The notes: generated by a model not told the origin, from the sequence alone. A DNA stretch of 64,000 bases from Janthinobacterium sp. (GCA_025360045.1 JANYCY010000087.1:23398-87397); one strand, 5' to 3'. Positions 4,567 through 15,581 are shown, counted from the first letter of the stretch. Made by a program: numbers and translations.

Positions 4567-5604
4567 ATGACCAATCAAAGCTTGAGCTACCGCGATGCGG
4601 GTGTCGATATCGATGCCGGCGATCAGTTGGTTGAAAATATTAAGCCCTACGCCAAGCGTACCATGCGCCCAGAGGTGCTTAGTGGCATTGGCGGTTTCGG
4701 CGGTTTAGTCGAAATCAGTAAAAAATACCAAGAGCCTGTTTTAGTGTCCGGCACCGACGGTGTGGGCACTAAACTGAAGCTTGCTTTTGAGCTAAATCGC
4801 CACGATACCGTGGGGATTGATCTGGTTGCCATGAGTGTGAATGATATCTTGGTGCAAGGCGCCGAGCCATTATTCTTCCTCGATTACTTCGCTTGCGGCA
4901 AGCTAGATGTGCCGAATGCGACAGAAGTGATTCGCGGCATTGCCCACGGTTGCGAGCAAGCAGGTTGCGCGCTGATCGGTGGTGAAACTGCAGAAATGCC
5001 TGGTATGTACCCAGTGGGTGAATACGATTTGGCTGGCTTTGCAGTTGGTGTGGTCGAGAAAAGCAAAATCATTACTGGCGACGATATTGCACCGGGTGAT
5101 GTGGTGCTGGGCTTGGCATCTAATGGTGCACATTCCAACGGCTACAGCTTAATTCGCAAAATCATGCATCGTGCTGAAGCCGATTACGCTGCAGAATTTG
5201 ACGGCGGCAAGAGCCTTGCTGATGTAGTCATGGCTGCAACGCGCATCTACGTGAAGCCGCTGTTGAAACTTATGCAAGCTTTGCCGGTCAAGGGTATGGC
5301 GCATATTACTGGTGGCGGGATCAGCGAAAACGTACCGCGTGTACTGCCAAATAATGTCGTTGCTGCCATCGATGCCAAATCTTGGACCATGCCTAAGTTA
5401 TTCCAATGGCTGCAAAAAGAAGGCAATGTGGACGCGCAAGAAATGTACCGCACCTTTAACTGTGGCGTGGGTATGGTGGTGATTATGGCTGCAGATCAAG
5501 CTGCCGCCGCGATTGCCCTGCTTGAAGCCGAAGGTGAAACCGTTTACACCATGGGTACGATTCGTGCCCGCGTGGGTGATGAGCACCAGACGCAAGTTGC
5601 TTAA
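4567..5604 (+). CDS. purM: Phosphoribosylformylglycinamidine cyclo-ligase (AIR synthase)
   Basis: [48 protein letters not shown]. Confidence 0.98.
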
Positions 5605-5609
5605 TCTTT

Positions 5610-5671
5610 GTAGGGCGGGTGAAACCCGCCATTTTATCAATACTTGATAAAATGGCCGTTGAAAGCTCTAC
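5610..5671. repeat. GTAG-type REP doublet (class 1, right arm degenerate) with internal hairpin
   Basis: GTAGGGCGGGTGAAACCCGCC ... CCATTTTATCAA-TAC-TTGATAAAATGG ... CTCTAC. Confidence 0.8.
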
Positions 5672-5675
5672 AGAT

Positions 5676-5709
5676 AGGGCGAGGGCTCCTACCTCGCCCT
5701 TTCTATTTT
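5676..5709 (+). terminator. Hairpin with T-rich tail between purM and purN
   Basis: AGGGCGAGG-GCTCCTA-CCTCGCCCT followed by TTCTATTTT. Confidence 0.45.
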
Positions 5710-5716
5710 GAGACTT

Positions 5717-6352
5717 ATGAAAAATATTGTTATCTTGATTTCTGGCCGTGGCAGCAATATGCAAGCCATTGTGGATGCACAAATCGCAGGCGCAAATATC
5801 TGCGCCGTGATTGCTAATCGCCCCGATGCAGCAGGTTTGGCTTGGGCCGCAGAGCGTGGCATTGCCACTGCCGTGCTTGATCATAAGCTTTACGCTGGCC
5901 GTGAGGCCTTTGATGCCGCTCTCACCGCACTGATTGATGGCTATGCACCTGATTTAATCGTGCTGGCGGGCTTTATGCGGATTCTGACCGCAGGCTTTGT
6001 GAATCACTATGCGGGCCGCCTGATTAATATCCATCCTTCCCTGTTGCCTGCTTACACTGGCCTGCATACGCACGAACGTGCCTTGGCTGATGGCGTGAAA
6101 ATTGCGGGCTGTACGGTCCATTTTGTGACGGCCGAGTTAGATCATGGCCCTATTATTTTGCAAGCGGCTCTGGCCGTGCTGGATGACGATACGGTCGCTA
6201 GCTTATCCCGCCGAATGCTGGAGCAAGAGCATTTGATTTATCCGCAAGCGGTACGCTGGTTTGTGGAAGATCGCTTAAAGTTGGTGAATGGTAGGGTTCA
6301 TGTAGATAGCCCTGCGCCTGCTGCGGTATTGATTGCACCTCCGGTGCTTTAA
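5717..6352 (+). CDS. purN: Phosphoribosylglycinamide formyltransferase
   Basis: ILISGRGSNMQAI, LAGFMRIL, NIHPSLLP, GCTVHFVTAELDHGPII. Confidence 0.98.
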   Translation: MKNIVILISGRGSNMQAIVDAQIAGANICAVIANRPDAAGLAWAAERGIATAVLDHKLYAGREAFDAALTALIDGYAPDLIVLAGFMRILTAGFVNHYAGRLINIHPSLLPAYTGLHTHERALADGVKIAGCTVHFVTAELDHGPIILQAALAVLDDDTVASLSRRMLEQEHLIYPQAVRWFVEDRLKLVNGRVHVDSPAPAAVLIAPPVL

Positions 6353-7503
6353 TGCTGCGCTGGCCTGGATTGTTGCTGGTAGCTGCTGCTCTGCTGTCCC
6401 TGCTATTGCATCTGGGCTGGATCTTTAACGAGCAAATTTACGCTTGGCTGACGCAGCAACCCTACGCCGAGAGCGAGCTAAAAAAAGTCACGCAAAAATT
6501 GAGCGATATTGCACAGGCAGATGATGCTCGTCCTGCTGGTTTGAAAGGGATTAAACCAGTAGATCATCAGCTGGTGTATTTGCACCGTGGGCCAGTGCAA
6601 CAAGTGCCTGAGAAGCCTGTAGTGCGGGTGGCCAAAAAATCCCCGACCAAGATTACTGCAAGTCGTGCATCTGCAGTTGAGCAGGTAGTGAGCAGTGTTG
6701 TGGCCCATGCCGCAAGTGAAGTTGCAAAAGAAGTGGTGGAGGCAACGGTAGCAAGCAGCGTTAAACCCGTGGCATTGATTGCCTCGGCGCTCGTTGAAGA
6801 AGAATTACCTCCGCTTAAAGAAAGCCCCTTGGTCACTGAGCAAACTTATCCCGCAGCGGTAGAAATTACCTATGCTTATGGGATCTTCCCGATTCGGATG
6901 AGCTGGCAGGCCGTAAATGGCCAATACTCATTGAAGCTGCGAGGCGCTTTGTTTAGCAAATCACGTACTTTTGTGAGTGATGGTGAAGTAGGGCAAAAAG
7001 GGGTAATCCCGCATCGATTCGCCGATTATCGTGACGAAAAATTGATTAATGAGGCCGTGTTTAATTGGGAAGACAAACAAGTCACCATTAAAGATGGCGG
7101 CAGTAGCAAGGTTGAGGAGTTAAAAGCAGGCGATCAGGATATTTTCTCTGCCGCCTTTCAATTGGCCTTACAAGGCTCGCGGATGAAAGATTTTACTTTT
7201 ACCGTAGCCAGTGGCCGTAAGATTTATAAAGATGTGCCGTTTGAAATTAGCGGCCAAGCCAGCCTGCGATTAGGCGATAAACAAATCGAAGCCATTTTGC
7301 TACGAGGTCGTTTTGAAGACCGTACTTTTGATTTTTGGCTGGCACCACAGTGGCACAATATGCCAGTACGAATGACCTTATCACTGGGTAGCGAAGGTAG
7401 CTTCGATATCTGGGCTAATGATATAAAAATTAATGGGGAAATGGTGCTTGAGCCGCAAAGCGGCAACCCTAACTCCAACTCCAACCGCATGATGCGAAGA
7501 TAA
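6352..7503 (+). CDS. DUF3108-like exported/membrane-anchored protein
   Basis: N-terminal hydrophobic helix, low-complexity linker, beta-rich C-terminal domain (F.W, DIFSAAFQL, WLAPQWHNMPVRM); conserved position after purN; TAATG coupling. Confidence 0.65.
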   Translation: MLRWPGLLLVAAALLSLLLHLGWIFNEQIYAWLTQQPYAESELKKVTQKLSDIAQADDARPAGLKGIKPVDHQLVYLHRGPVQQVPEKPVVRVAKKSPTKITASRASAVEQVVSSVVAHAASEVAKEVVEATVASSVKPVALIASALVEEELPPLKESPLVTEQTYPAAVEITYAYGIFPIRMSWQAVNGQYSLKLRGALFSKSRTFVSDGEVGQKGVIPHRFADYRDEKLINEAVFNWEDKQVTIKDGGSSKVEELKAGDQDIFSAAFQLALQGSRMKDFTFTVASGRKIYKDVPFEISGQASLRLGDKQIEAILLRGRFEDRTFDFWLAPQWHNMPVRMTLSLGSEGSFDIWANDIKINGEMVLEPQSGNPNSNSNRMMRR

Positions 7504-7508
7504 AAGAC

Positions 7509-8777
7509 ATGATTGCTTTAAATAATACCCGTTACCACGCCGCTATTTCTGTTCTATCCGAAATGCTGGTGTTTGCCGCCCCGTCTGATGCCACCATGTC
7601 GCGTTTTTTTCGCAGCAATCCCAATCTGGGCGGCCAAGATCGCCATATGATTGCCGAGTGCGTGTACGGCATTTTGCGTAACAAAATTCGCCTTGAGTGG
7701 GTTTTAGGTGGCCCAGCGAATGCGCGCAGCCTGCTCACTGCTTACTTAGTGGTGGTAGAGCGCCGTAATCTGCGTGAATGTGGTGATTGGTTTCCAGACA
7801 CAGAAAAAGACAATTTTGCCCTGTGTAAAAGCAAAAAACTCGCCGAAGCACCGGTTTATGTGCGCGCCGACTTGCCGGAATGGGTAGTGAGCGATCTGCT
7901 CGCAGGCAATATGAACGACGCCGATATTCTGGCCCTAGGTGCTGGCCTGCAAGGTGCAGCCGCGCTTGATCTGCGGGTAAACAGCTTAAAAGCCAAGCGC
8001 GAGCAAGTCGCTGCCGAGTTGCTGGATGTAGGTGGTGTAGAAACCACGCCAACGCCTTATTCCCCTTGGGGCCTGCGTGTAACGGGCAAGCCAGCCATTA
8101 ATAAATACCGCGCCTTTACCGAAGGCCGTGTAGAAGTACAAGACGAAGGCAGCCAGCTTTTGGGCCTGCTTACCGGCGCAAAGCGCGGCCAAATGGTAGT
8201 GGATTTCTGCGCGGGTGCGGGTGGTAAAACCCTGCTGCTGGGCGCAATGATGAATTCTAGCGGCCGCTTGTACGCCTTTGATGTATCCGAAAAACGCCTG
8301 AATAACTTTAAGCCACGTTTGGCCCGCTCCGGCCTTTCTAACGTGAGTGCGCAGCTTATTTCTAGCGAAAACGATCAGAAAATCAAACGTTTAGTCGGCA
8401 AAATCGATTCAGTTTTGGTTGACGCACCTTGCTCCGGCATGGGCACAGTACGCCGCAACCCCGATCTGAAATTCCGCCAAAACCCAGCCAGCGTGCTCGA
8501 GTTGAACGCCATGCAAACCAGCATTCTGGCGTCGGCTTCACGCTTGGTAAAATCCGCAGGCCGCTTGGTTTACGCTACCTGCAGCTTCTTGCCATCCGAA
8601 AACGAAGCCATTGTTGAAGCCTTCCTTGCCGCCAACCCCGATTTCAAACTGCTGGATGCGCCAGAGCTATTGAAAGCCGAGCAAGTAGATATTCCATTGA
8701 CCGGCCCTTACTTCAAACTATCTCCACATCTGCATCAGGCTGATGCTTTCTTTGCGGCGGTAATGCAAAGAGATTGA
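7509..8777 (+). CDS. RsmB/NOP family SAM-dependent RNA m5C methyltransferase
   Basis: VQDEGSQ, DFCAGAGGKT, DAPCSGMG and YATCS catalytic Cys motifs. Confidence 0.93.
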   Translation: MIALNNTRYHAAISVLSEMLVFAAPSDATMSRFFRSNPNLGGQDRHMIAECVYGILRNKIRLEWVLGGPANARSLLTAYLVVVERRNLRECGDWFPDTEKDNFALCKSKKLAEAPVYVRADLPEWVVSDLLAGNMNDADILALGAGLQGAAALDLRVNSLKAKREQVAAELLDVGGVETTPTPYSPWGLRVTGKPAINKYRAFTEGRVEVQDEGSQLLGLLTGAKRGQMVVDFCAGAGGKTLLLGAMMNSSGRLYAFDVSEKRLNNFKPRLARSGLSNVSAQLISSENDQKIKRLVGKIDSVLVDAPCSGMGTVRRNPDLKFRQNPASVLELNAMQTSILASASRLVKSAGRLVYATCSFLPSENEAIVEAFLAANPDFKLLDAPELLKAEQVDIPLTGPYFKLSPHLHQADAFFAAVMQRD

Positions 8778-8793
8778 TTGCTTCCTTGTTAAG

Positions 8794-8823
8794 AAAAAGC
8801 CCATCACGTTGATGGGCTTTTTT
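8794..8823. terminator. Bidirectional intrinsic terminator
   Basis: AAAAAGCCCATCAC-GTT-GATGGGCTTTTTTT between convergent genes. Confidence 0.8.
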
Positions 8824-8897
8824 TGGGATAGGAATTAATTTATGGCGGAGCAAGGACACGGCTCGAAATAACTGTCCAAAATTAAGCATTCAAAACC

Positions 8898-8968
8898 CCG
8901 TCATCCCCGAGTGAATTTGTCGGGGATCCAGCAGCGCCACTAGATTCCCGCCTGCGTGGGCATGACTG
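8898..8968. repeat. dRS3-like double-hairpin repeat, copy 1 (orientation A)
   Basis: CCGTCATCCCCGAG...CGGGGATCCAG...GATTCCCGCC...GGGCATGAC; related copies at 15507, 43205 and 44749. Confidence 0.85.
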
Positions 8969-8995
8969 TATTCCGCGACATTGATAAGGGCTTAA

Positions 8996-11116
8996 TCAAG
9001 CAGGCTCACAAACTTTTTTTTGATCAAACACCAACTTGCCACGTTCCATCACCACCACTCTATCGGCCATCGCGATGGTTTCTGGTCGATGAGCAATAAT
9101 AATCCGAGTGATTTTAAGCTGCTTAATCGCGGCATTGACATGCTGCTCACGGCTAACATCTAAATGAGATGTTGCCTCGTCGAGCACAAGAATTTTTGGC
9201 TGCTTATATAATGCTCTGGCTAATAAAACACGTTGTTTTTGCCCGCCAGAAAGGGATGTTCCCATATCGCCAACAAGCGTGTTGTAAGCCATAGGCATGG
9301 TTAAAATATCGTCATGTATGGCGGCCATTAGTGCGCATTGCAGCATGCGGTTTTGATCGGGCTGTGGATCAAAGAAAGTAATATTATCTTCGATAGAGCC
9401 AGCAAATAGGCTATCGTCTTGCATCACCGTACCAAACAGGCTGCGATATTGGCTTAAACCTATTTGTCTAGGTGTTAAGCCGCCTAATTTAATCTCACCC
9501 GCTGTTGGTTCTAAAATACCCAAAATGATTTTAGCCAGTGTCGTTTTACCGCAGCCCGATCCGCCTGTAATGGCAATACATTCGCCAGCTTTAATTTGCA
9601 GATCAAAATGATCAAGCACATTAGGGTCGAGAGGTGAATATCTAAAGCCTGTGCCATTTAATGAAATATTTAAATCAGCAGGAGATTGTCCCAATACGGC
9701 TTTGGCTTCTTCTGGTTCAGCCAAAACAATATCGGCTAAGCGCTCGCCGTGTAACTTTAATAAACGGAACTCTAAAAATTTATCAATTAAGCCAGCCATA
9801 CGGCTACTAAATTGATCTTTATAGGATAAATAGGCAAATAGCATCCCGACGCTAAGGCTAGAATTCATAACGGCCAAAGCCCCCAGCCAAATGACAATAC
9901 TTCTTTCAAATCCAAATAATAATGTTTGGCCATTTTGAAAAATAATCAGCATCTTTTGCTGGCTTAAGTGGCTATTAAACTGATTAACCAGTTGATTTAG
10001 CCAAACAACTCGCCGTTCTTCTACACGGTTAAATAGTTTTACACTCTGAATACCACGCACACTTTCCATAAAACTTGATTGTGCTTTAGCGGTATGAATC
10101 ATTTCTTCTTGCGATACAGCACGCATGGGTCTGAATAAGGCAAAACGCATCAATGCATAGATTAAGACCGCAGCTATGGTGATGGCCGCTAGCTTTACGC
10201 TATAGAGCAGCATCATAATCAGCGTGCCAATTACTAATACGCCATCAATGGCGGCTTCAACAAAACTATTGGTCAGTGTGCGTTGAATGGTGTCAATGGA
10301 TTGAAAGCGTGAAACAACATCCCCCAAATGGCGTTTTTCAAACCAACTCACTGGCAAAGATAATAAATGGCTAAATACTCGTGCCGCCCATTGATAGCCC
10401 AAGCTGGCACTCATAGCCATCAACACCCAACCGCGTAATGTGCCAATCACGACTTGCACAATAATTAATAGGCCAAAGCCCAGCCCCAATACCATCAGCA
10501 GGTCTTTATCTTGTGCAACTAATACTTCATCGACCACCCATTGCATTTGAAAAGGCAGAGCGATGGCGCAGAGTTGCAGTAATAGAGTGAGAAAGAAAGC
10601 TTGAACTAACGAACGCTTTAAGCCACTGACTTTGCCAAATAGCTGGCTAAAACGTAATGGGCGTGTTTCTTCTTGGTGGGTGAAGGCGCTGGTGGGAGTG
10701 AGTTCTAATGCGATACCAGTAAAGTGCTTACTGAATGCTTGCAAGCTTAATTCGTGCTTGCCTATGGCTGGATCATGAATGATTGCGGAATTTTTTGTGA
10801 CTTCAATTAGCACAACAAAATGGCTCATATCCCAATGCAAAATACACGGCAATTTGAGTTGAGTAAGATGCTCCATTTCTAGTTTTAATGGGCGACTGGC
10901 TAATTCCAAATGTTTGGCAATATCCATTAAATGCTTGAGTGTTGCGCCTTTTAAAGAAGGAGAAAATTGCCGCCGCAAACTATTTAAATCACGCTTATCG
11001 CCACAATGCGCGGCAATCATTGCCAAGCAGGCGAGGCCACATTCGGTGGATTCTGTTTGTAAAATAACTGGGGTGCTGGTACGCCACCCCATATTTAATG
11101 CGGGTAAATAATTCAT
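8996..11116 (-). CDS. Peptidase-containing ABC transporter (PCAT, CvaB/MchF-like) for double-glycine peptides
   Basis: N-terminal C39 domain (QTESTECGLACL, CILHWDMSHFVVL), TM domain, NBD with GGSGCGKT, LSGGQKQR and ILVLDEATS; start set at MNYLP (11116) because the ORF-track extension runs into a REP. Confidence 0.96.
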   Translation of the reverse strand: MNYLPALNMGWRTSTPVILQTESTECGLACLAMIAAHCGDKRDLNSLRRQFSPSLKGATLKHLMDIAKHLELASRPLKLEMEHLTQLKLPCILHWDMSHFVVLIEVTKNSAIIHDPAIGKHELSLQAFSKHFTGIALELTPTSAFTHQEETRPLRFSQLFGKVSGLKRSLVQAFFLTLLLQLCAIALPFQMQWVVDEVLVAQDKDLLMVLGLGFGLLIIVQVVIGTLRGWVLMAMSASLGYQWAARVFSHLLSLPVSWFEKRHLGDVVSRFQSIDTIQRTLTNSFVEAAIDGVLVIGTLIMMLLYSVKLAAITIAAVLIYALMRFALFRPMRAVSQEEMIHTAKAQSSFMESVRGIQSVKLFNRVEERRVVWLNQLVNQFNSHLSQQKMLIIFQNGQTLLFGFERSIVIWLGALAVMNSSLSVGMLFAYLSYKDQFSSRMAGLIDKFLEFRLLKLHGERLADIVLAEPEEAKAVLGQSPADLNISLNGTGFRYSPLDPNVLDHFDLQIKAGECIAITGGSGCGKTTLAKIILGILEPTAGEIKLGGLTPRQIGLSQYRSLFGTVMQDDSLFAGSIEDNITFFDPQPDQNRMLQCALMAAIHDDILTMPMAYNTLVGDMGTSLSGGQKQRVLLARALYKQPKILVLDEATSHLDVSREQHVNAAIKQLKITRIIIAHRPETIAMADRVVVMERGKLVFDQKKVCEPA

Positions 11117-11143
11117 TAGTGTGCTCAATAAAAGGCGTAGCTT

Positions 11144-11202
11144 GTAGGGCGGGTGCAACCCGCGAGCGATGCTGAAAAATACGCGGGTTGCACCCGCCCT
11201 AC
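11144..11202. repeat. GTAG-type REP doublet (REPIN, class 1) between the HlyD and PCAT genes
   Basis: GTAGGGCGGGTGCAACCCGCG...CGCGGGTTGCACCCGCCCTAC perfect inverted arms. Confidence 0.9.
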
Positions 11203-11266
11203 GAAAAAGTCATGTGTTGTATTGGATCAAATTACTGTGCAAGGCGCGCTCGCACGTGAGTAAGCC

Positions 11267-12505
11267 CTAAACCCTTTTCCCCGCACTAATTAATGGCTCA
11301 AACAGCCATTCAATAATCCGGCGGCGGTCTAATTCCACACTGGCTTCTAAACGCATGCCGGGTTTGAAATACTGCGTTTTTCCATAAGCCTGTAAAGATT
11401 CAGCATCAAGCTTTACTCGCACCCGATACAGCGGCTCGCCATTGGCCAAACCCAGTACACTGGGGTCGGTAGTGGCGTCCGAAACCTCACTAACAATACC
11501 GCCTTGCTGGCCAAATTTTTGATAGGGGAAGGCATGCAGGCGCAAATAAACGGCTTGGCCGGTTTTTAAAAAACCTATTGCTGAGCTGGGTGCGTAGAGC
11601 TGAGCTTCTAAATGACTACCTGCAGGCAGCAGCGTGGCTAAGGCAGTATTGGGCTCGACGCGATTACCTTGATGGCTGTTGATCGCTGCGACGACCCCAG
11701 ATGCAGGGGCTGTAACAATAAATCGTCGCTGACCTTCGTTTTCTGCTTGTGCTTGCGAGAGGGTGGAGATCTCTCTTTGCAAAGCACTGATTTGTGATTG
11801 GCTGCGCAATGGTAGCGTTGCTAGCTCGCTTTTTAAGCCAGAGAACTCACGTTGTAGGGCCATTTGATTACGAGTTGTGCTGGCGTATCGGGATTGTAAA
11901 TCGAGCAATTCTTCCTGCTTTTGTTGAATCTGCAAGCTGGAAACAAAGCCTTGCAACGATTGAAACTTGGCGAGGGTTTGCTCGGCCAGATGAACTCGCT
12001 GCTTGCCTAAGCTCACTTCTTGCTGGGTTTGTGCCATTTCTTGCTGCAGCTCTAGCAGATGCCGGCTAAGGTTTTGTGCCTGATCGCCAGCTAGCGTGCG
12101 TAAATAGCCTATTTCATTTTGTAAGTTATTGGTTTTTTCTGTAAGCGACGCATTGCCACGAGCCAGTGCCCCACCACCCCCTGCTGTTTCGCGCTCACCA
12201 CTCAAAACAAACAAAACCTGCCCTGCGACTACGCTTTGTCCTTCACTCACCCTTTGCTCTAGCAGGGTAGCGGCAGTAGGCGTATAGACTTTTAACTCCC
12301 CATATTGAGGGGCAATCAAGCCGCTTAATGTCGCTTTGCGTGAGTATTGGCTTAAAAACAAAAAAGTGATAATAATCAATGATAATAAACAAAATATACT
12401 AATTATTAACCCTGTTTTAAACGGTGAAATTAAAAGAATATTACCGTTTAATTGTGCTCTGCTATTTTCTAGTACGGCACTGCGATAGAGACTGGATCGT
12501 TGCAT
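11267..12505 (-). CDS. HlyD-family membrane fusion protein (CvaA/MchE-like)
   Basis: Single N-terminal TM, long coiled coil, APASGVV lipoyl-like motif, AFPYQKFGQQGG.V, LKPGM-like FKPGMRLEA; directly upstream of the PCAT. Confidence 0.95.
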   Translation of the reverse strand: MQRSSLYRSAVLENSRAQLNGNILLISPFKTGLIISIFCLLSLIIITFLFLSQYSRKATLSGLIAPQYGELKVYTPTAATLLEQRVSEGQSVVAGQVLFVLSGERETAGGGGALARGNASLTEKTNNLQNEIGYLRTLAGDQAQNLSRHLLELQQEMAQTQQEVSLGKQRVHLAEQTLAKFQSLQGFVSSLQIQQKQEELLDLQSRYASTTRNQMALQREFSGLKSELATLPLRSQSQISALQREISTLSQAQAENEGQRRFIVTAPASGVVAAINSHQGNRVEPNTALATLLPAGSHLEAQLYAPSSAIGFLKTGQAVYLRLHAFPYQKFGQQGGIVSEVSDATTDPSVLGLANGEPLYRVRVKLDAESLQAYGKTQYFKPGMRLEASVELDRRRIIEWLFEPLISAGKRV

Positions 12506-12542
12506 TTTAAAAAACTTAATAAAAATAAATGATAAGTAGATA

Positions 12543-12615
12543 TTGACGTAGGTATTTTTTTTTTTGCAATAATTTGTTCAGCTTTTTGAAAGAAAGCTTG
12601 TTGCAAGCTTGATGC
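12543..12615 (+). promoter_or_regulatory. Candidate promoter/operator of the bacteriocin precursor in an AT-rich divergent region
   Basis: TTGACG (12543-12548), T11 tract (12555-12565), AATAAT (12568-12573) and tandem 11-mers AAGCTTGTTGC/AAGCTTGATGC (12594-12615). Confidence 0.4.
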
Positions 12616-12647
12616 TTGTTTGATAAACTTAAATGGAAGTATGAAAA

Positions 12648-12863
12648 ATGCAAGAATTGAATATGATGGAAGTTGGAATGGTGAGTGGTGGTGGAGATGC
12701 AAATGATGCGTGTGTCAATGCTTCTATAGGTTTTTATGGAGCATTAGGTGGCGGGGTTGCCGGTGCAGGCTCATTTGGTTTTGGTGCGATTGCTGGTGCA
12801 ACTTTTGGTTCAGCTGTAGGTGGGTGGGTGGGCAAGCGGCTTTGCAATATGTTCTTTAATTAA
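12648..12863 (+). CDS. Double-glycine-leader bacteriocin/class II microcin precursor (15-aa leader + 56-aa core)
   Basis: Leader MQELNMMEVGMVSGG fits the M-x-x-L-x3-E-hyd-x2-V-S-G-G consensus; Gly/Ala-rich core with two Cys; SD-like GGAAG 8 nt upstream; divergent from PCAT+HlyD. Confidence 0.9.
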   Translation: MQELNMMEVGMVSGGGDANDACVNASIGFYGALGGGVAGAGSFGFGAIAGATFGSAVGGWVGKRLCNMFFN

Positions 12864-12877
12864 GGTTGGCTTAAGTG

Positions 12878-12912
12878 GCTAAGCCATCTTTGTGGTGGCT
12901 TGGCTTTGTTTG
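12878..12912 (+). terminator. Hairpin with U-rich tail between precursor and immunity candidate
   Basis: GCTAAGCCATC-TTTGT-GGTGGCTTGGC (11 bp including G-U pairs) followed by TTTGTTTG. Confidence 0.5.
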
Positions 12913-12946
12913 AAAGGATTGGTTTTATTTTTAGGGCTGTTTGGAT

Positions 12947-13135
12947 ATGCTAAAAAATTTCTTTGCTAGCATTGGTTTGCTAGCTGTCGCATTGGATGTA
13001 AATTTGTACTTTGGCTTTGTGGAGGGGGTTGCTCCATGGGTTAAATATTTTGGTGGAATAGTACTGCTAGCGATAATAATTTTTTCAAATAGAAACAAAG
13101 AGTTGAGGCTTGGCTCCGTAAAAGTAGTCGAATAA
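12947..13135 (+). CDS. Small two-TM membrane protein, candidate bacteriocin immunity protein (62 aa)
   Basis: Two hydrophobic segments (FFASIGLLAVALDVNLYFGFV; WVKYFGGIVLLAIIIFS) and a basic tail; immediately downstream of the precursor. Confidence 0.65.
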   Translation: MLKNFFASIGLLAVALDVNLYFGFVEGVAPWVKYFGGIVLLAIIIFSNRNKELRLGSVKVVE

Positions 13136-13347: not shown

Positions 13348-14427
13348 ATGCCTGACTCCCAATATTGCCAATTCCGCCTTCGCCTCGCCACAAGCGCCAT
13401 TCGCGAATTGCTTTCTGCCCTAAAACATAATGCCTTGATTGTGTGTGCCTCTGCTGGCATTGGCTTGCTAGGGCTATTAGCCTTTATTGCACTGCCCTTG
13501 TTTTATGCACCTTTATTATCTTGGCCCAAGGCATTGGCAACGGTGCTTGGGCAGTCGGCATTAATGGCTTTGCCGGTGCTTTTGCTTAAAACCACGATCT
13601 TGCCTATGCATATTCGGCCGTGGTTGCGGGCCTTGCCGATTAGTCGCTTTGACTTATGGATGGCCAATGCCTTGGTTTGTGGGCGTTGGATTGCTATTTT
13701 GGCTGGCTTTTATGCAGTTTCGGTGGCGATTTGGTTGTGGCAGTTTCCGCCGTGGCTACAGCCGGTGTGGTATTGGGGCGTGCTGAATGTGTGCTTGCTG
13801 CTGTTGATTAGCTGGGTGTTGGGCACGCTGATTTTGCAGTTTGAATATCAGCCCAAGGCCAAGGCGCTGGCCGTGCCGTCGGCTTTGCGCCTTGTGGCGC
13901 GTTGGCAGGGCTGGCGCTTGGCGTTTCCGCTGTTGATATTGCCGTTTTTTCGGGCAGGAAAGCTGCATATCGCGCTGCGGCAAATTTTTTTGCTCGTGCT
14001 TAGCACATCGACGCTACTTGCATGGTTTTGTCATCAGCAGTTGCATATTGCCGGCGCGCTGCTGGCTTTTTTGTTTAGCGTGAGTTTTGTGATGCTGATT
14101 AGCTTAGGGGATGCGGCGCTTAAGCTGCAGTATCGCCATTTACAGCCGCATATTCAGGCTTGGCCAGTGCAGGCGCAGATGATTAGCCATAGTGCGCGGG
14201 TGTTGGCGGCCTTGCCGTTATTACTAGTCATTGGGCTGTTTTTGCTGCTCGCCGTGCAAAATGAGGCTTTGATTAGCCTTAGGGTGATGTGGGTGTATTG
14301 CTCGGTTGCCTTGCTTGGTCATTTCACAATGATTGCTTTTAGCCAACTGGGCAGTCAGCTACGCGCCATGTTGTTGGTGTTAACCATGGGTATTTTATCT
14401 GCCGCAGGAAGTGAATTATGGCTTTAG
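13348..14427 (+). CDS. Polytopic membrane protein, probable ABC permease
   Basis: About 9-10 hydrophobic segments; LRALPISR motif typical of ABC-2-like permeases; overlaps the downstream ATPase by 10 nt. Confidence 0.7.
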   Translation: MPDSQYCQFRLRLATSAIRELLSALKHNALIVCASAGIGLLGLLAFIALPLFYAPLLSWPKALATVLGQSALMALPVLLLKTTILPMHIRPWLRALPISRFDLWMANALVCGRWIAILAGFYAVSVAIWLWQFPPWLQPVWYWGVLNVCLLLLISWVLGTLILQFEYQPKAKALAVPSALRLVARWQGWRLAFPLLILPFFRAGKLHIALRQIFLLVLSTSTLLAWFCHQQLHIAGALLAFLFSVSFVMLISLGDAALKLQYRHLQPHIQAWPVQAQMISHSARVLAALPLLLVIGLFLLLAVQNEALISLRVMWVYCSVALLGHFTMIAFSQLGSQLRAMLLVLTMGILSAAGSELWL

Positions 14428-15029
14428 CTTTACAGATTGATGCACTGGATTTCTCCTACGCTGGGCGGGCGATTTTTACTGAATGGGGCCATCGTTTTCA
14501 GCTGGGGATTACTTGGCTGCGTGGCAGTAATGGCTCGGGTAAAACCACTTTGCTGAAGATTATCGGCGGGGCAATGGCGGCTCATGCGGGGGAAATTAAG
14601 CTGGGCGATTTGGAGTGCGCGGCTCAGCCGCTGGATTATCGGCGCAAGGTGTTTTTGTGCGCGGGTGAAGCACCTGCTTTGCCGTGGTTAAAAACACGTG
14701 AGTTGTTTGATTTGTATTTATCACTCTACCCCGTGGCGCAGCTCGATAATTTTCACCGCCATTTAGCTGCTTTTGGTTTGCATTCAGTATTGGATCAGCC
14801 AGTGAGCACGCTGTCTTTGGGCCAGCATAAGAAAATGCAGCTGGCGATTGCTTTGGCTTTGCCGGTGAGCTTGTTATTACTAGACGAGCCATTTAATGGC
14901 GTGGATCAGGCGTCATTGGCTTATTTGCAGACGCAATTGGCGCTGACGCAGCGCTTAGCGCAGCAGACCATTATATTAACGAGTCATGTACAGCCTGAGA
15001 TTGCGATTGTGGAGCAGGTGTTTCTGTAG
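14418..15029 (+). CDS. Stand-alone ABC ATP-binding protein (short, 203 aa)
   Basis: GSNGSGKT Walker A, LSLGQ signature, LLLLDEP Walker B, LTSH H-loop. Confidence 0.92.
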   Translation: MALALQIDALDFSYAGRAIFTEWGHRFQLGITWLRGSNGSGKTTLLKIIGGAMAAHAGEIKLGDLECAAQPLDYRRKVFLCAGEAPALPWLKTRELFDLYLSLYPVAQLDNFHRHLAAFGLHSVLDQPVSTLSLGQHKKMQLAIALALPVSLLLLDEPFNGVDQASLAYLQTQLALTQRLAQQTIILTSHVQPEIAIVEQVFL

Positions 15030-15064: not shown

Positions 15065-15089
15065 AAAAGTGCTTTGCTCAGCAGTGGTG

Positions 15090-15506: not shown

Positions 15507-15581
15507 CGTCATTCCCGCGTGCCTTTGGCGGGAATCCAGTCGCGCTGCTGGATCCCCGACTAAAACACTCGAGGATGACGG
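15507..15581. repeat. dRS3-like repeat, copy 2 (orientation B, inverted relative to copy 1)
   Basis: CGTCATTCCCGCG...GGCGGGAATCCAG...CTGGATCCCCGAC...GAGGATGACGG; its reverse complement aligns with 8898-8968. Confidence 0.88.

What the first reader, a model, noticed from the sequence alone, without database searches (positions are those of the whole stretch)
12648..12863. Precursor core is a Cys-clamped glycine-zipper hairpin with a microcin V/L-like RLCN motif
Seen: after the 15-aa leader the core GDANDACVNASIGFYGALGGGVAGAGSFGFGAIAGATFGSAVGGWVGKRLCNMFFN has G16-G20-G24 and a five-Gly i+4 zipper G31-G35-G39-G43-G47. Its only two Cys (C7 and C51) sit at the two ends, suggesting a disulfide-closed helical hairpin. 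The C-terminal GKRLCN resembles the GRLCN/GRMCN segment I recall from microcins V and L. Its N-terminal-to-C-terminal Cys placement instead resembles Gram-positive Blp/class IIb-IIc peptides. There is no Ser-rich C-terminus, so siderophore modification (class IIb microcin) is not expected. Inference: a membrane-inserting, pore-forming peptide that blends features of two families.
Basis: partly seen in the sequence, partly recalled or inferred. Interest (0 to 1): 0.7.

Follow-up and report, generated by a model that had tools for sequence, protein, structure and literature searches.

The report
Hairpin microcin resembling Gram-positive bacteriocins

Summary
Window 12648-12863(+) encodes a 71-aa precursor: a 15-aa double-glycine leader and a 56-aa neutral, hydrophobic core with G16/G20/G24, G31/35/39/43/47, C7 and C51. 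It lies divergent to an HlyD-type adaptor and a C39-peptidase ABC exporter, so by context it is an unmodified class II (IIa-type) microcin.

Searches of billions of proteins found one homologue (Chromobacterium sp., 46% identity). It keeps both Cys with identical spacing and the five-Gly zipper, but RLCN becomes DAFCG. BLASTP against a verified MccV sequence gives E=30. The microcin V/L link is therefore not supported.

The core does match real Streptococcus/Enterococcus 'Blp family' peptides of the thermophilin 13 ThmA / brochocin C BrcA type:
- hhalign probability 95%, aligned from Cys to Cys.
- 0 of 2000 shuffles reach its HMM score.
- The shared pattern is D-C ... GAxxGAxxGxxxGxxxGxxxC.

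In the literature this group is modelled as helical hairpins, and in gallocin A an intramolecular disulfide is needed for activity. AlphaFold gives helix-turn-helix at low confidence.

Against I. arcticus, DNA homology stops exactly at the Gly-Gly codons, so the core and immunity genes were swapped behind a conserved leader.

Most likely this is a disulfide-stapled, membrane-permeabilising hairpin microcin. That is a new variant of a known kind and moderately interesting. Activity, disulfide and target are untested.

The parts
12648..12692 (+). Double-glycine leader (MQELNMMEVGMVSGG), cleaved after GG by the C39 domain of the exporter
   Evidence: The leader DNA is conserved with I. arcticus up to the GGTGGT codons, after which similarity is lost. 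BLASTP of the two precursors aligns only residues 1-23.
12693..12863 (+). 56-aa core plus stop codon: a neutral, hydrophobic, Gly-zipper helix-turn-helix with C7 and C51 (probable disulfide)
   Evidence: AlphaFold gives H3-26 / H30-54 at pLDDT 67, and the same topology at pLDDT 47.5 with a 33-sequence alignment. The homologue P0002 keeps both Cys and the zipper. hhalign to ThmA/BrcA-type cores gives 95%.
12877..12905 (+). Terminator-like hairpin (12 pairs, T-rich tail) between the precursor and the next ORF; possibly sets the ratio of peptide to immunity transcript
   Evidence: This is a pattern match only.
12941..13135 (+). Candidate immunity protein: 62-64 aa (likely ATG at 12947), two hydrophobic segments, basic C-terminal tail
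   Evidence: No Pfam or NCBIfam hit. A 63-aa two-segment ORF holds the same position after the Chromobacterium homologue, with only weak similarity (E=0.01). Replaced together with the core in I. arcticus.
12506..12647 (.). AT-rich divergent intergenic region between the adaptor gene and the precursor; GGAAG lies 8 nt before the ATG
   Evidence: A sigma-70-like match at 12620-12649. GC about 0.35.
11267..12505 (-). HlyD-family membrane fusion protein (type I secretion adaptor)
   Evidence: Pfam HlyD_3 E=3e-15; TIGR01843 E=1e-40, below its cut-off.
8996..11158 (-). Peptidase-containing ABC transporter (C39 peptidase + ABC membrane domain + ATPase). The true start is probably the Met at about 11116 (MNYLPALNMGW).
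   Evidence: Peptidase_C39 E=2e-37, ABC_membrane E=6e-39, ABC_tran E=7e-31. 96% identical to the I. arcticus protein. 51% identical to the Chromobacterium exporter, with the alignment starting at residue 18.
13348..15029 (+). 359-aa polytopic permease and 203-aa ABC ATPase (overlapping genes). They are neighbours in the slot; a role in self-protection is possible but not supported by co-occurrence.
   Evidence: An 89%-identical pair sits in the same rsmB / S9-peptidase slot of another Iodobacter species that lacks the exporter, adaptor, peptide and immunity ORF. Absent from I. arcticus and from the Chromobacterium locus.

Best explanation
This is the structural gene of an unmodified, double-glycine-leader bacteriocin, a class IIa-type microcin, in an Iodobacter chromosome.

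Shown:
- A 71-aa precursor sits next to its exporter (C39-peptidase ABC transporter and HlyD adaptor). TolC-type outer-membrane factors are encoded elsewhere in the genome.
- A small two-segment membrane ORF follows the precursor.
- The core has one close homologue in the databases searched, and it resembles the ThmA/BrcA-type Gram-positive peptides.
- The core is swapped, relative to I. arcticus, exactly at the leader/core junction.

Inferred:
- The exporter cuts after Gly15 and releases a 5.3-kDa neutral, hydrophobic peptide.
- The peptide folds as two antiparallel helices (about residues 3-26 and 30-54) packed through Gly/Ala faces.
- Oxidation of C7-C51 staples the open end of the hairpin.
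- The hairpin inserts into the cytoplasmic membrane of related bacteria and dissipates ion gradients, alone or after docking on a membrane protein.
- The downstream 62-64-aa membrane protein protects the producer.

The core is most likely a remote relative of the thermophilin 13 ThmA / brochocin C BrcA / gallocin A group. It is not a relative of microcin V.
For: Context:
- Pfam and NCBIfam assign the neighbours to Peptidase_C39 + ABC and to HlyD.
- Eight OEP/TolC-type genes are present in the genome.

Genuine conserved family:
- P0002 from Chromobacterium sp. is 46% identical and also sits beside a 63-aa membrane ORF, an adaptor and a peptidase-ABC exporter.
- Both Cys are conserved with identical spacing (43 residues between them), as is G31-G35-G39-G43-G47.
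- At the predicted turn, the homologue has the hydrophilic stretch GESKAG.

Fold: AlphaFold gives helix-turn-helix in two runs.

Link to ThmA/BrcA-type 'Blp family class II bacteriocins' (real sequences):
- An HMM built from 14 Gram-positive cores scores the window core 16.5 bits and the Chromobacterium core 18.3 bits. None of 2000 shuffles reaches these scores (maxima 10.7 and 9.7). The I. arcticus core scores -2.9 and MccV 6.3.
- hhalign of the two Gram-negative cores against 10 Gram-positive cores gives probability 95.1%, E=3e-8, 49 columns from Cys to Cys. Controls give 1% and 15%.
- The same HMM ranks the two peptides 1st and 2nd among 18,749 ORFs from 81 Gram-negative exporter loci plus the window.

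Literature:
- Gallocin A peptides are helical hairpins whose intramolecular disulfide is required for activity. [quoted passage not shown]
- ThmA is active alone, and thermophilin 13 is described as a poration complex that works without a receptor (PMC10059821).
Against:
- AlphaFold confidence is low (pLDDT 67, and 47.5 with the alignment). No coordinates were available, so the Cys-Cys distance could not be measured.
- The peptide does not reach the Pfam cut-offs for Bacteriocin_IIc or MccV.
- An unbiased phmmer search of 1.84 billion representatives did not retrieve the Gram-positive peptides.
- With HMMER bias correction on the full ORF, the window peptide scores only 9.7 bits, E=0.92 among 18,749 ORFs. 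Convergence of simple Gly-zipper hairpins is therefore not excluded.
- ThmA and BrcA work best with a partner peptide, and no second double-glycine peptide is present here.
- The 56-aa core has no evident uptake module for crossing a Gram-negative outer membrane.
- The immunity assignment rests on position and hydrophobicity alone.
Confidence: 0.7

Rival explanations
1. Convergence rather than homology. The peptide is a lineage-restricted betaproteobacterial microcin. Its likeness to ThmA/BrcA reflects the limited ways of building a Gly-zipper helical hairpin closed by one disulfide. Function would be the same as in the best explanation; only the origin differs.
For: - A database-wide phmmer search found only the Chromobacterium homologue.
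- Pfam PF10439 is not reached.
- The bias-corrected HMM score is 9.7 bits, E=0.92.
- Weak sub-threshold hits to generic Gly-zipper families (Gly-zipper_Omp, DUF6861) are shared by all these peptides.
- The exporter is typically proteobacterial, about 50% identical to Burkholderiaceae and Kangiella exporters.
Against: - The agreement extends beyond composition: D-C near the N-terminus, GAxxGAxxGxxxGxxxGxxxC in register, and an N-x-F-N-like tail.
- hhalign gives 95% against 1% for another Gly-rich core from the same locus type.
- None of 2000 shuffles reaches the observed score.
Confidence: 0.35
2. A microcin V/L-type peptide. The C-terminal GKRLCN would be the remnant of the MccV/MccL receptor-uptake module, and the peptide would use a Cir-like TonB-dependent route.
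For: - RLCN is shared with verified MccV. The shuffle p for a shared Cys-containing 4-mer is 0.0013.
- Pfam MccV gives a weak hit, E=0.13.
Against: - RLCN is DAFCG in the only homologue.
- BLASTP against MccV gives E=30.
- hhalign gives 15%, in the Gly-rich region only.
- The rest of the MccV C-terminal module (…WNYAAGRLCNWSPNNLSDVCL) has no counterpart.
- In MccV that Cys pairs with a Cys 11 residues downstream. Here the partner is 44 residues upstream.
- The Pfam match covers profile positions 1-52 of 104 only.
Confidence: 0.04
3. Not primarily a weapon. The exported hairpin peptide would serve the producer itself as a signal, an autolysis factor or a self-assembling matrix or amyloid component. 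Such roles are reported for some double-glycine peptides of Neisseria and Acinetobacter.
For: - Nap peptides of Neisseria have double-glycine motifs yet promote autolysis rather than killing competitors (PMC11798529).
- One listed paper reports microcins promoting Acinetobacter biofilm (title and abstract only).
- Gly-zipper helices tend to self-associate. The nearest matches among solved structures are sub-threshold hits to CHCHD10/CHCHD2 segments.
Against: - A dedicated small membrane ORF sits directly downstream in both family members.
- Core and ORF are exchanged as a unit between species, as expected for toxin-immunity pairs under diversifying competition.
- No sensor kinase or response regulator lies beside the locus.
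Confidence: 0.1
4. A silent relic: the ORF is intact but no longer expressed or exported.
For: - No expression data are available.
- The locus is present in only 2 of 12 Iodobacter species.
Against: - All reading frames of the exporter, adaptor, precursor and downstream ORF are intact.
- The leader keeps every consensus position.
- The exporter is 96% identical to its I. arcticus orthologue, with no stops.
Confidence: 0.06

Closest known systems
Thermophilin 13 ThmA / brochocin C BrcA and the gallocin A-type subgroup of Gram-positive class IIb ('Blp family', Pfam PF10439) bacteriocins
   Same: - A double-glycine leader.
- A long (about 56-62 aa), weakly charged, Gly/Ala-rich core.
- One Cys a few residues from the N-terminus (D-C) and one near the C-terminus.
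- The same GAxxGAxxGxxxGxxxGxxxC register.
- A predicted helical hairpin.
- A small membrane protein encoded next to it.
   Different: - Proteobacterial host, with type I secretion through a peptidase-ABC exporter plus an HlyD adaptor (and presumably TolC).
- A 15-aa leader instead of 18-23 aa.
- No partner peptide, no Blp-type quorum-sensing genes and no thiol-disulfide oxidoreductase in the locus.
- Below the Pfam PF10439 cut-off.
- About 30-37% identity only.
Microcin V (ColV, CvaC) and microcin L, class IIa microcins
   Same: - Gene organisation: precursor, small immunity gene, CvaA-like adaptor and CvaB-like exporter.
- A 15-aa double-glycine leader.
- A Gly-rich hydrophobic N-terminal part.
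- Unmodified apart from a possible disulfide.
- The four residues RLCN.
   Different: - No homology in the core (BLASTP E=30).
- No C-terminal uptake module.
- The MccV disulfide is a local C-terminal loop, not an end-to-end clamp.
- RLCN is not conserved in this family.
- The core is 56 aa, against 88 aa for MccV.
Microcin E492 (class IIb), helix-turn-helix toxic domain solved in complex with ManYZ (PDB 7dyr)
   Same: - A Gly-rich helical hairpin that sits in the inner membrane.
- Foldseek lists 7dyr_A among the nearest folds (TM 0.63, not significant).
- NCBIfam E492_microcin gives a weak hit, E=0.31.
   Different: - No man-PTS recognition segment.
- No Gly/Ser tail or siderophore genes.
- MccE492 has no Cys clamp.
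Glycine-zipper two-helix membrane hairpins of SlyB/Rick_17kDa-type lipoproteins (Pfam Gly-zipper families)
   Same: The same GxxxG-repeat hairpin pattern. Sub-threshold Pfam hits, and SlyB appears among the Foldseek neighbours.
   Different: Those are domains of larger lipoproteins exported by the Sec pathway. They are not leader-cleaved secreted peptides with dedicated exporters.

Membership tests
Class II microcin (class IIa type) | Ribosomal peptide under 10 kDa with an N-terminal double-glycine leader | tested here: met
   71-aa precursor. Leader MQELNMMEVGMVSGG has hydrophobic residues at -4, -7, -12 and -15 and Glu at -8.
Class II microcin (class IIa type) | Adjacent peptidase-containing ABC transporter and membrane fusion protein | tested here: met
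   Peptidase_C39 E=2e-37 with ABC_membrane and ABC_tran; HlyD_3 E=3e-15.
Class II microcin (class IIa type) | TolC-type outer-membrane partner available | tested here: met
   Eight OEP-family genes in the genome, none in the locus. Which one is used is unknown.
Class II microcin (class IIa type) | Dedicated small immunity protein next to the precursor | tested here: inconclusive
   A 62-64-aa ORF with two hydrophobic segments lies downstream. It has no family hit. A positional analogue exists in the Chromobacterium locus.
Class II microcin (class IIa type) | Antibacterial activity of the secreted peptide | not testable with these tools
   Needs secretion and inhibition assays.
Class IIb (siderophore) microcins | Gly/Ser-rich C-terminus ending in Ser, with siderophore-attachment genes | tested here: not met
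   The C-terminus is ...KRLCNMFFN. No such genes lie among the neighbours.
Microcin V family (Pfam PF17508) | Score above the Pfam gathering threshold | tested here: not met
   13.3 bits against a cut-off of 27. The match covers profile positions 1-52 of 104 only.
Microcin V family (Pfam PF17508) | C-terminal uptake module containing GRLCN and its local disulfide, conserved among members | tested here: not met
   Only RLCN is shared. It becomes DAFCG in the sole homologue. BLASTP E=30. hhalign 15%, outside that region.
Blp / ThmA-BrcA-type class IIb bacteriocins (Pfam PF10439; gallocin A-type hairpin subgroup) | Score above the Pfam PF10439 gathering threshold | tested here: not met
   No PF10439 hit at E<=1 for the precursor or at E<=10 for the core.
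Blp / ThmA-BrcA-type class IIb bacteriocins (Pfam PF10439; gallocin A-type hairpin subgroup) | Long, weakly charged peptide with two Cys close to the N- and C-termini and repeated GxxxG | tested here: met
   C7 and C51 of 56 residues, net charge 0, five-Gly chain. The same columns are invariant or nearly invariant in the 33-sequence alignment.
Blp / ThmA-BrcA-type class IIb bacteriocins (Pfam PF10439; gallocin A-type hairpin subgroup) | Sequence-profile similarity to family members beyond composition | tested here: met
   hhalign 95.1%, E=3e-8. None of 2000 shuffles reaches the HMM score. Ranks 1 and 2 of 18,749 ORFs. However, the bias-corrected E-value for the window peptide alone is 0.92.
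Blp / ThmA-BrcA-type class IIb bacteriocins (Pfam PF10439; gallocin A-type hairpin subgroup) | Two-peptide system (partner peptide gene adjacent) | tested here: not met
   No second double-glycine ORF in the window locus or in the Chromobacterium locus.
Blp / ThmA-BrcA-type class IIb bacteriocins (Pfam PF10439; gallocin A-type hairpin subgroup) | Intramolecular disulfide required for activity | not testable with these tools
   Only conservation of the Cys pair and low-confidence hairpin models are available.

The most novel reading that the evidence does not exclude
The hairpin core was exchanged across the Gram divide. Under this reading, a ThmA/BrcA-type toxic core of Firmicutes bacteriocins now works as a stand-alone, single-peptide microcin in Betaproteobacteria. 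It would be plugged in at the Gly-Gly codons behind a resident leader and type I exporter. The leader/core junction would thus act as a recombination joint that lets unrelated toxin-immunity cassettes be swapped under one secretion system.
Probability: 0.35. Interest if true: 0.65.

Novelty: new variant of a known kind. Interest (0 to 1): 0.45.

Why it matters
Class II microcins are now regarded as widespread and very diverse in sequence (PMC12219008), but few have been characterised outside the Enterobacterales.

This peptide defines a two-member family with three notable features:
- It consists of little more than the membrane-active hairpin.
- It is probably stapled end to end by one disulfide.
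- Its best match is a group of Gram-positive two-peptide bacteriocins.

If it is active, it would be a minimal model for asking how a 5-kDa neutral hairpin crosses a Gram-negative envelope without an obvious uptake module. It would also test whether the hairpin toxic domains of Gram-positive and Gram-negative bacteriocins share ancestry.

The clean break of homology at the Gly-Gly codons is a natural example of the modular leader/cargo design that engineers already use in microcin secretion chassis.

Tried and rejected
Searches for more family members:
- Word-indexed search of 5.8 billion proteins with the peptide found only itself. With the two-member profile it found only the two members.
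- Six-frame searches of the own genome, 56 genomes of the family and 400 of the order found no further member. They returned only weak Gly-rich noise and Gly-zipper lipoprotein-like ORFs.
- Two metagenome scans and one viral scan found nothing.
- tblastn against plasmids found no match.

Mining of the 80 related exporter loci turned up many unrelated double-glycine peptides, but only the Chromobacterium one is homologous in the core. My first regular-expression screen was too noisy and was dropped.

Structure comparisons:
- The profile search of solved-structure sequences gave only sub-threshold CHCHD10/CHCHD2 matches.
- Foldseek against the PDB gave no significant match (E>5).
- AlphaFold with a 33-sequence alignment lowered confidence instead of raising it.

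Other attempts:
- A literature search for exact ThmA/BrcA sequence strings found nothing. I therefore checked my recalled sequences against database proteins: P0010 differs from recalled ThmA by one residue, and P0025 and P0044 are BrcA-like.
- No supplementary files were held for PMC12219008.

Ideas rejected:
- The 55-nt inverted repeats are not island boundaries. The element has at least 43 copies genome-wide.
- The ABC permease/ATPase pair is not clearly part of the bacteriocin cassette. It occurs in the same slot of another species without the cassette.

Full report
OBSERVATION

The ORF at 12648-12863(+) exists exactly as described. It encodes a 15-aa double-glycine leader (MQELNMMEVGMVSGG) and a 56-aa core, GDANDACVNASIGFYGALGGGVAGAGSFGFGAIAGATFGSAVGGWVGKRLCNMFFN. 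The Gly positions 16/20/24 and 31/35/39/43/47 and the two Cys (7 and 51) are correct. C51 lies four residues after G47, so it extends the zipper register.

The core is neutral (net charge 0), hydrophobic (GRAVY 0.61) and has a mass of 5337 Da. By composition-preserving shuffles, the five-Gly chain (p=0.025) and the terminal Cys placement (p=0.028) are each mildly unusual. Conservation, described below, is the stronger argument.

CONTEXT

An HlyD-family adaptor (11267-12505, minus strand) and a C39-peptidase ABC exporter (8996-11158, minus strand) lie divergently upstream. Downstream come three features:
- A terminator-like hairpin at 12877-12905.
- A 62-64-aa ORF with two hydrophobic segments at 12941-13135.
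- A 359-aa permease overlapping a 203-aa ABC ATPase.

Eight TolC-type outer-membrane factor genes lie elsewhere in the genome. The flanks are 90% identical in DNA to Iodobacter arcticus, and the exporter is 96% identical in protein. The genome is therefore an Iodobacter species.

Only 2 of 12 Iodobacter species carry this exporter. The module has lower G+C than its flanks.

HOW RARE THE PEPTIDE IS

- A search of 5.8 billion protein clusters found only the peptide itself.
- A full phmmer pass over 1.84 billion representatives found one relative, P0002 (95 aa, E=1.4e-4, 46% identity), from Chromobacterium sp. TRC.1.1.SA.
- Six-frame searches of the own genome, 56 family genomes and 400 genomes of the order added nothing.
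- Metagenome, viral and plasmid scans also added nothing.

P0002 is followed by a 63-aa two-segment ORF, an adaptor and a peptidase-ABC exporter. It sits just after a prophage lysis cassette and next to a serine recombinase. Its exporter and adaptor are only 51% and 38% identical to the window's.

WHAT IS CONSERVED

In the pairwise alignment the following are all kept:
- the leader;
- D-C-x-N-A near the N-terminus;
- G16 and G20;
- the block GA(I/V)AGAT(F/V)GS(A/V)VGGW(V/M)G;
- both Cys, with exactly 43 residues between them.

The centre of the peptide (AGAGSF here, GESKAG there) is variable and becomes hydrophilic in the homologue, as expected for a turn.

The homologue also has a 28-aa G/N/D/R-rich tail with two more Cys, which the window peptide lacks.

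THE MICROCIN V CLAIM

My recalled MccV sequence matched cvaC on E. coli plasmids at 100%, so GRLCN is truly present there. A shared Cys-containing 4-mer is unlikely in one comparison (p=0.0013). Nothing else supports the link:
- BLASTP gives E=30 and does not align the C-termini.
- hhalign gives 15%, over the Gly-rich part only.
- Pfam MccV scores 13.3 bits against a cut-off of 27 and covers only the first half of the profile.
- In MccV that Cys closes a short C-terminal loop inside the uptake module, not an end-to-end clamp.

THE GRAM-POSITIVE LINK

A literature search returned the gallocin A paper (PMC10100652). It reports the following:
- GllA1 and GllA2 are modelled as alpha-helical hairpins. 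Each contains an intramolecular disulfide that was confirmed experimentally.
- Reduction abolishes activity.

Recalled ThmA and BrcA sequences aligned to the window core with the same pattern, D-C ... GAxxGAxxGxxxGxxxGxxxC. Because memory is only a lead, I used the joint alignment to retrieve real database proteins. This returned 50-odd Streptococcus and Enterococcus 'Blp family class II bacteriocins' carrying PF10439. P0010 is recalled ThmA with one residue changed.

Tests using real sequences only:
- An HMM of 14 Gram-positive cores scores the window core 16.5 bits and the Chromobacterium core 18.3 bits. None of 2000 shuffles of either reaches that score. The unrelated Gly-rich I. arcticus core scores -2.9 and MccV 6.3.
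- hhalign of the two Gram-negative cores against ten Gram-positive cores gives 95.1% probability, E=3e-8, over 49 columns from the first Cys to the second. Controls give 1% and 15%.
- Among 18,749 ORFs from 81 Gram-negative exporter loci plus the window, the same HMM ranks the Chromobacterium peptide first (E=0.01) and the window peptide second (E=0.92 after bias correction).

Caveats: Pfam PF10439 is not reached. The unbiased database search did not connect the groups. I therefore rate true homology at roughly 60% and convergence at 35-40%.

STRUCTURE

AlphaFold on the core alone gives helices 3-26 and 30-54 (pLDDT 67, pTM 0.40). With the 33-sequence alignment and the leader it gives the same helix-loop-helix, but at pLDDT 47.5. 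No coordinates were returned, so the Cys-Cys distance is unmeasured.

With a turn centred near residue 28, positions 7 and 51 lie within about two residues of facing each other. That is compatible with a disulfide at the open end, but this is inference.

Foldseek finds nothing significant. The nearest shapes are two-helix membrane hairpins, including SlyB and microcin E492 bound to ManYZ. [quoted passage not shown] A Gly-packed hairpin is thus the usual toxic element of class II microcins. What differs here is that the peptide is little more than that element, and that it carries an end-to-end Cys pair.

MECHANISM PROPOSED

1. The precursor is made. The C39 domain cuts after Gly15 during export through the ABC exporter, the adaptor and a TolC-type channel. 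The parts are shown; the process is inferred.
2. C7 and C51 oxidise outside the cell or in the target periplasm, stapling the hairpin (inferred).
3. The hairpin inserts into the cytoplasmic membrane of related bacteria and collapses ion gradients. Thermophilin 13 is described as a poration complex that needs no receptor, and ThmA alone is active (PMC10059821). Gallocin A permeabilises vesicles.
4. The downstream two-segment protein shields the producer (inferred from position, and from co-replacement with the core).

How the peptide passes an outer membrane is unknown. The hydrophilic extra tail of the Chromobacterium homologue may be an uptake module that this peptide lacks.

CASSETTE SWAP

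- DNA homology with I. arcticus runs from 7000 to 12692 and resumes at 15086.
- The alignment shows conserved leader codons up to GGTGGT and unrelated sequence afterwards.
- In I. arcticus the slot holds a different 75-aa double-glycine precursor with no Cys (ending ...RRLFMHY) and a different 74-aa membrane ORF.
- The leader/core junction is therefore the exchange point.

THE ABC PAIR AND THE REPEATS

The 359-aa permease and its ATPase occur at 89% identity in another Iodobacter species, in the same slot between rsmB and the S9 peptidase, without the exporter, adaptor, peptide or small ORF. They are absent from I. arcticus and from the Chromobacterium locus. Co-occurrence therefore does not support a dedicated immunity pump, although an orphan-immunity role is not excluded.

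The 55-nt inverted repeats at 8898-8952 and 15527-15581 belong to a dispersed element with at least 43 copies in the genome. They do not mark an island.

VERDICT

By context the gene is a class IIa-type microcin. By core sequence it is a new two-member family that is probably remotely related to the ThmA/BrcA/gallocin hairpin bacteriocins.

Noticed in passing
window 12692/12693 and 15085/15086; L021 4475 and 3480: Homology with Iodobacter arcticus breaks exactly after the Gly-Gly codons of the leader and resumes 2.4 kb later. I. arcticus has an unrelated Cys-free 75-aa precursor and a different 74-aa membrane ORF behind the same leader and exporter. This is a toxin-immunity cassette swap at the leader/core joint.
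   Followed up: yes
window 13348-15029; L131 (G042:C22) 5480-7191: The permease/ATPase pair is 89% identical in another Iodobacter species. There it sits in the same rsmB / S9-peptidase slot without any bacteriocin genes, so it is a resident or orphan of the slot, not clearly part of the microcin cassette.
   Followed up: yes
window 8898-8952 and 15527-15581: 55-nt inverted repeats flank the region, but the element is a dispersed REP-like repeat with at least 43 copies in the genome. One copy lies right after the second peptidase-ABC exporter gene on contig C87.
   Followed up: yes
window 11144-11202: A perfect 21-bp palindrome (17-nt loop) lies between the adaptor gene and the exporter gene. 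It overlaps the annotated TTG start of the exporter ORF. The true start is probably the Met near 11116, judging from the alignment with the Chromobacterium exporter.
   Followed up: partly
G000:C87:45962-49677: The same genome has a second peptidase-ABC exporter (45% identical), immediately followed by a TolC-type outer-membrane factor gene. This is another secretion locus, shared with three other Iodobacter species. Its cargo was not examined.
   Followed up: no
L101 1-13501 (Chromobacterium sp. TRC.1.1.SA): The only homologous microcin operon sits directly after a prophage tail-fibre, holin, CHAP-endolysin and spanin-like block, and before a serine recombinase. It looks like phage-borne cargo.
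   Followed up: partly
L101 8001-8288: The Chromobacterium homologue carries an extra 28-aa G/N/D/R-rich C-terminal tail with two further Cys (…GGACRDRSDCGRDND). This may be an uptake module that the Iodobacter peptide lacks.
   Followed up: no
L055-L088 (Serratia, Erwinia, Rosenbergiella, Tatumella, Yersinia loci): Related exporters in Enterobacterales are accompanied by many different small ORFs with Gly-Ala leaders (M(R/K)ELxxxExxxVSGAG...). None is related to this core.
   Followed up: partly
Pfam PF21724 (DUF6861), profile positions about 38-84: The window core and the ThmA/BrcA sequences as I recalled them gave weak sub-threshold hits to the same stretch of this uncharacterised family. 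The Chromobacterium core gave no DUF6861 hit. I did not look up what that family is.
   Followed up: no
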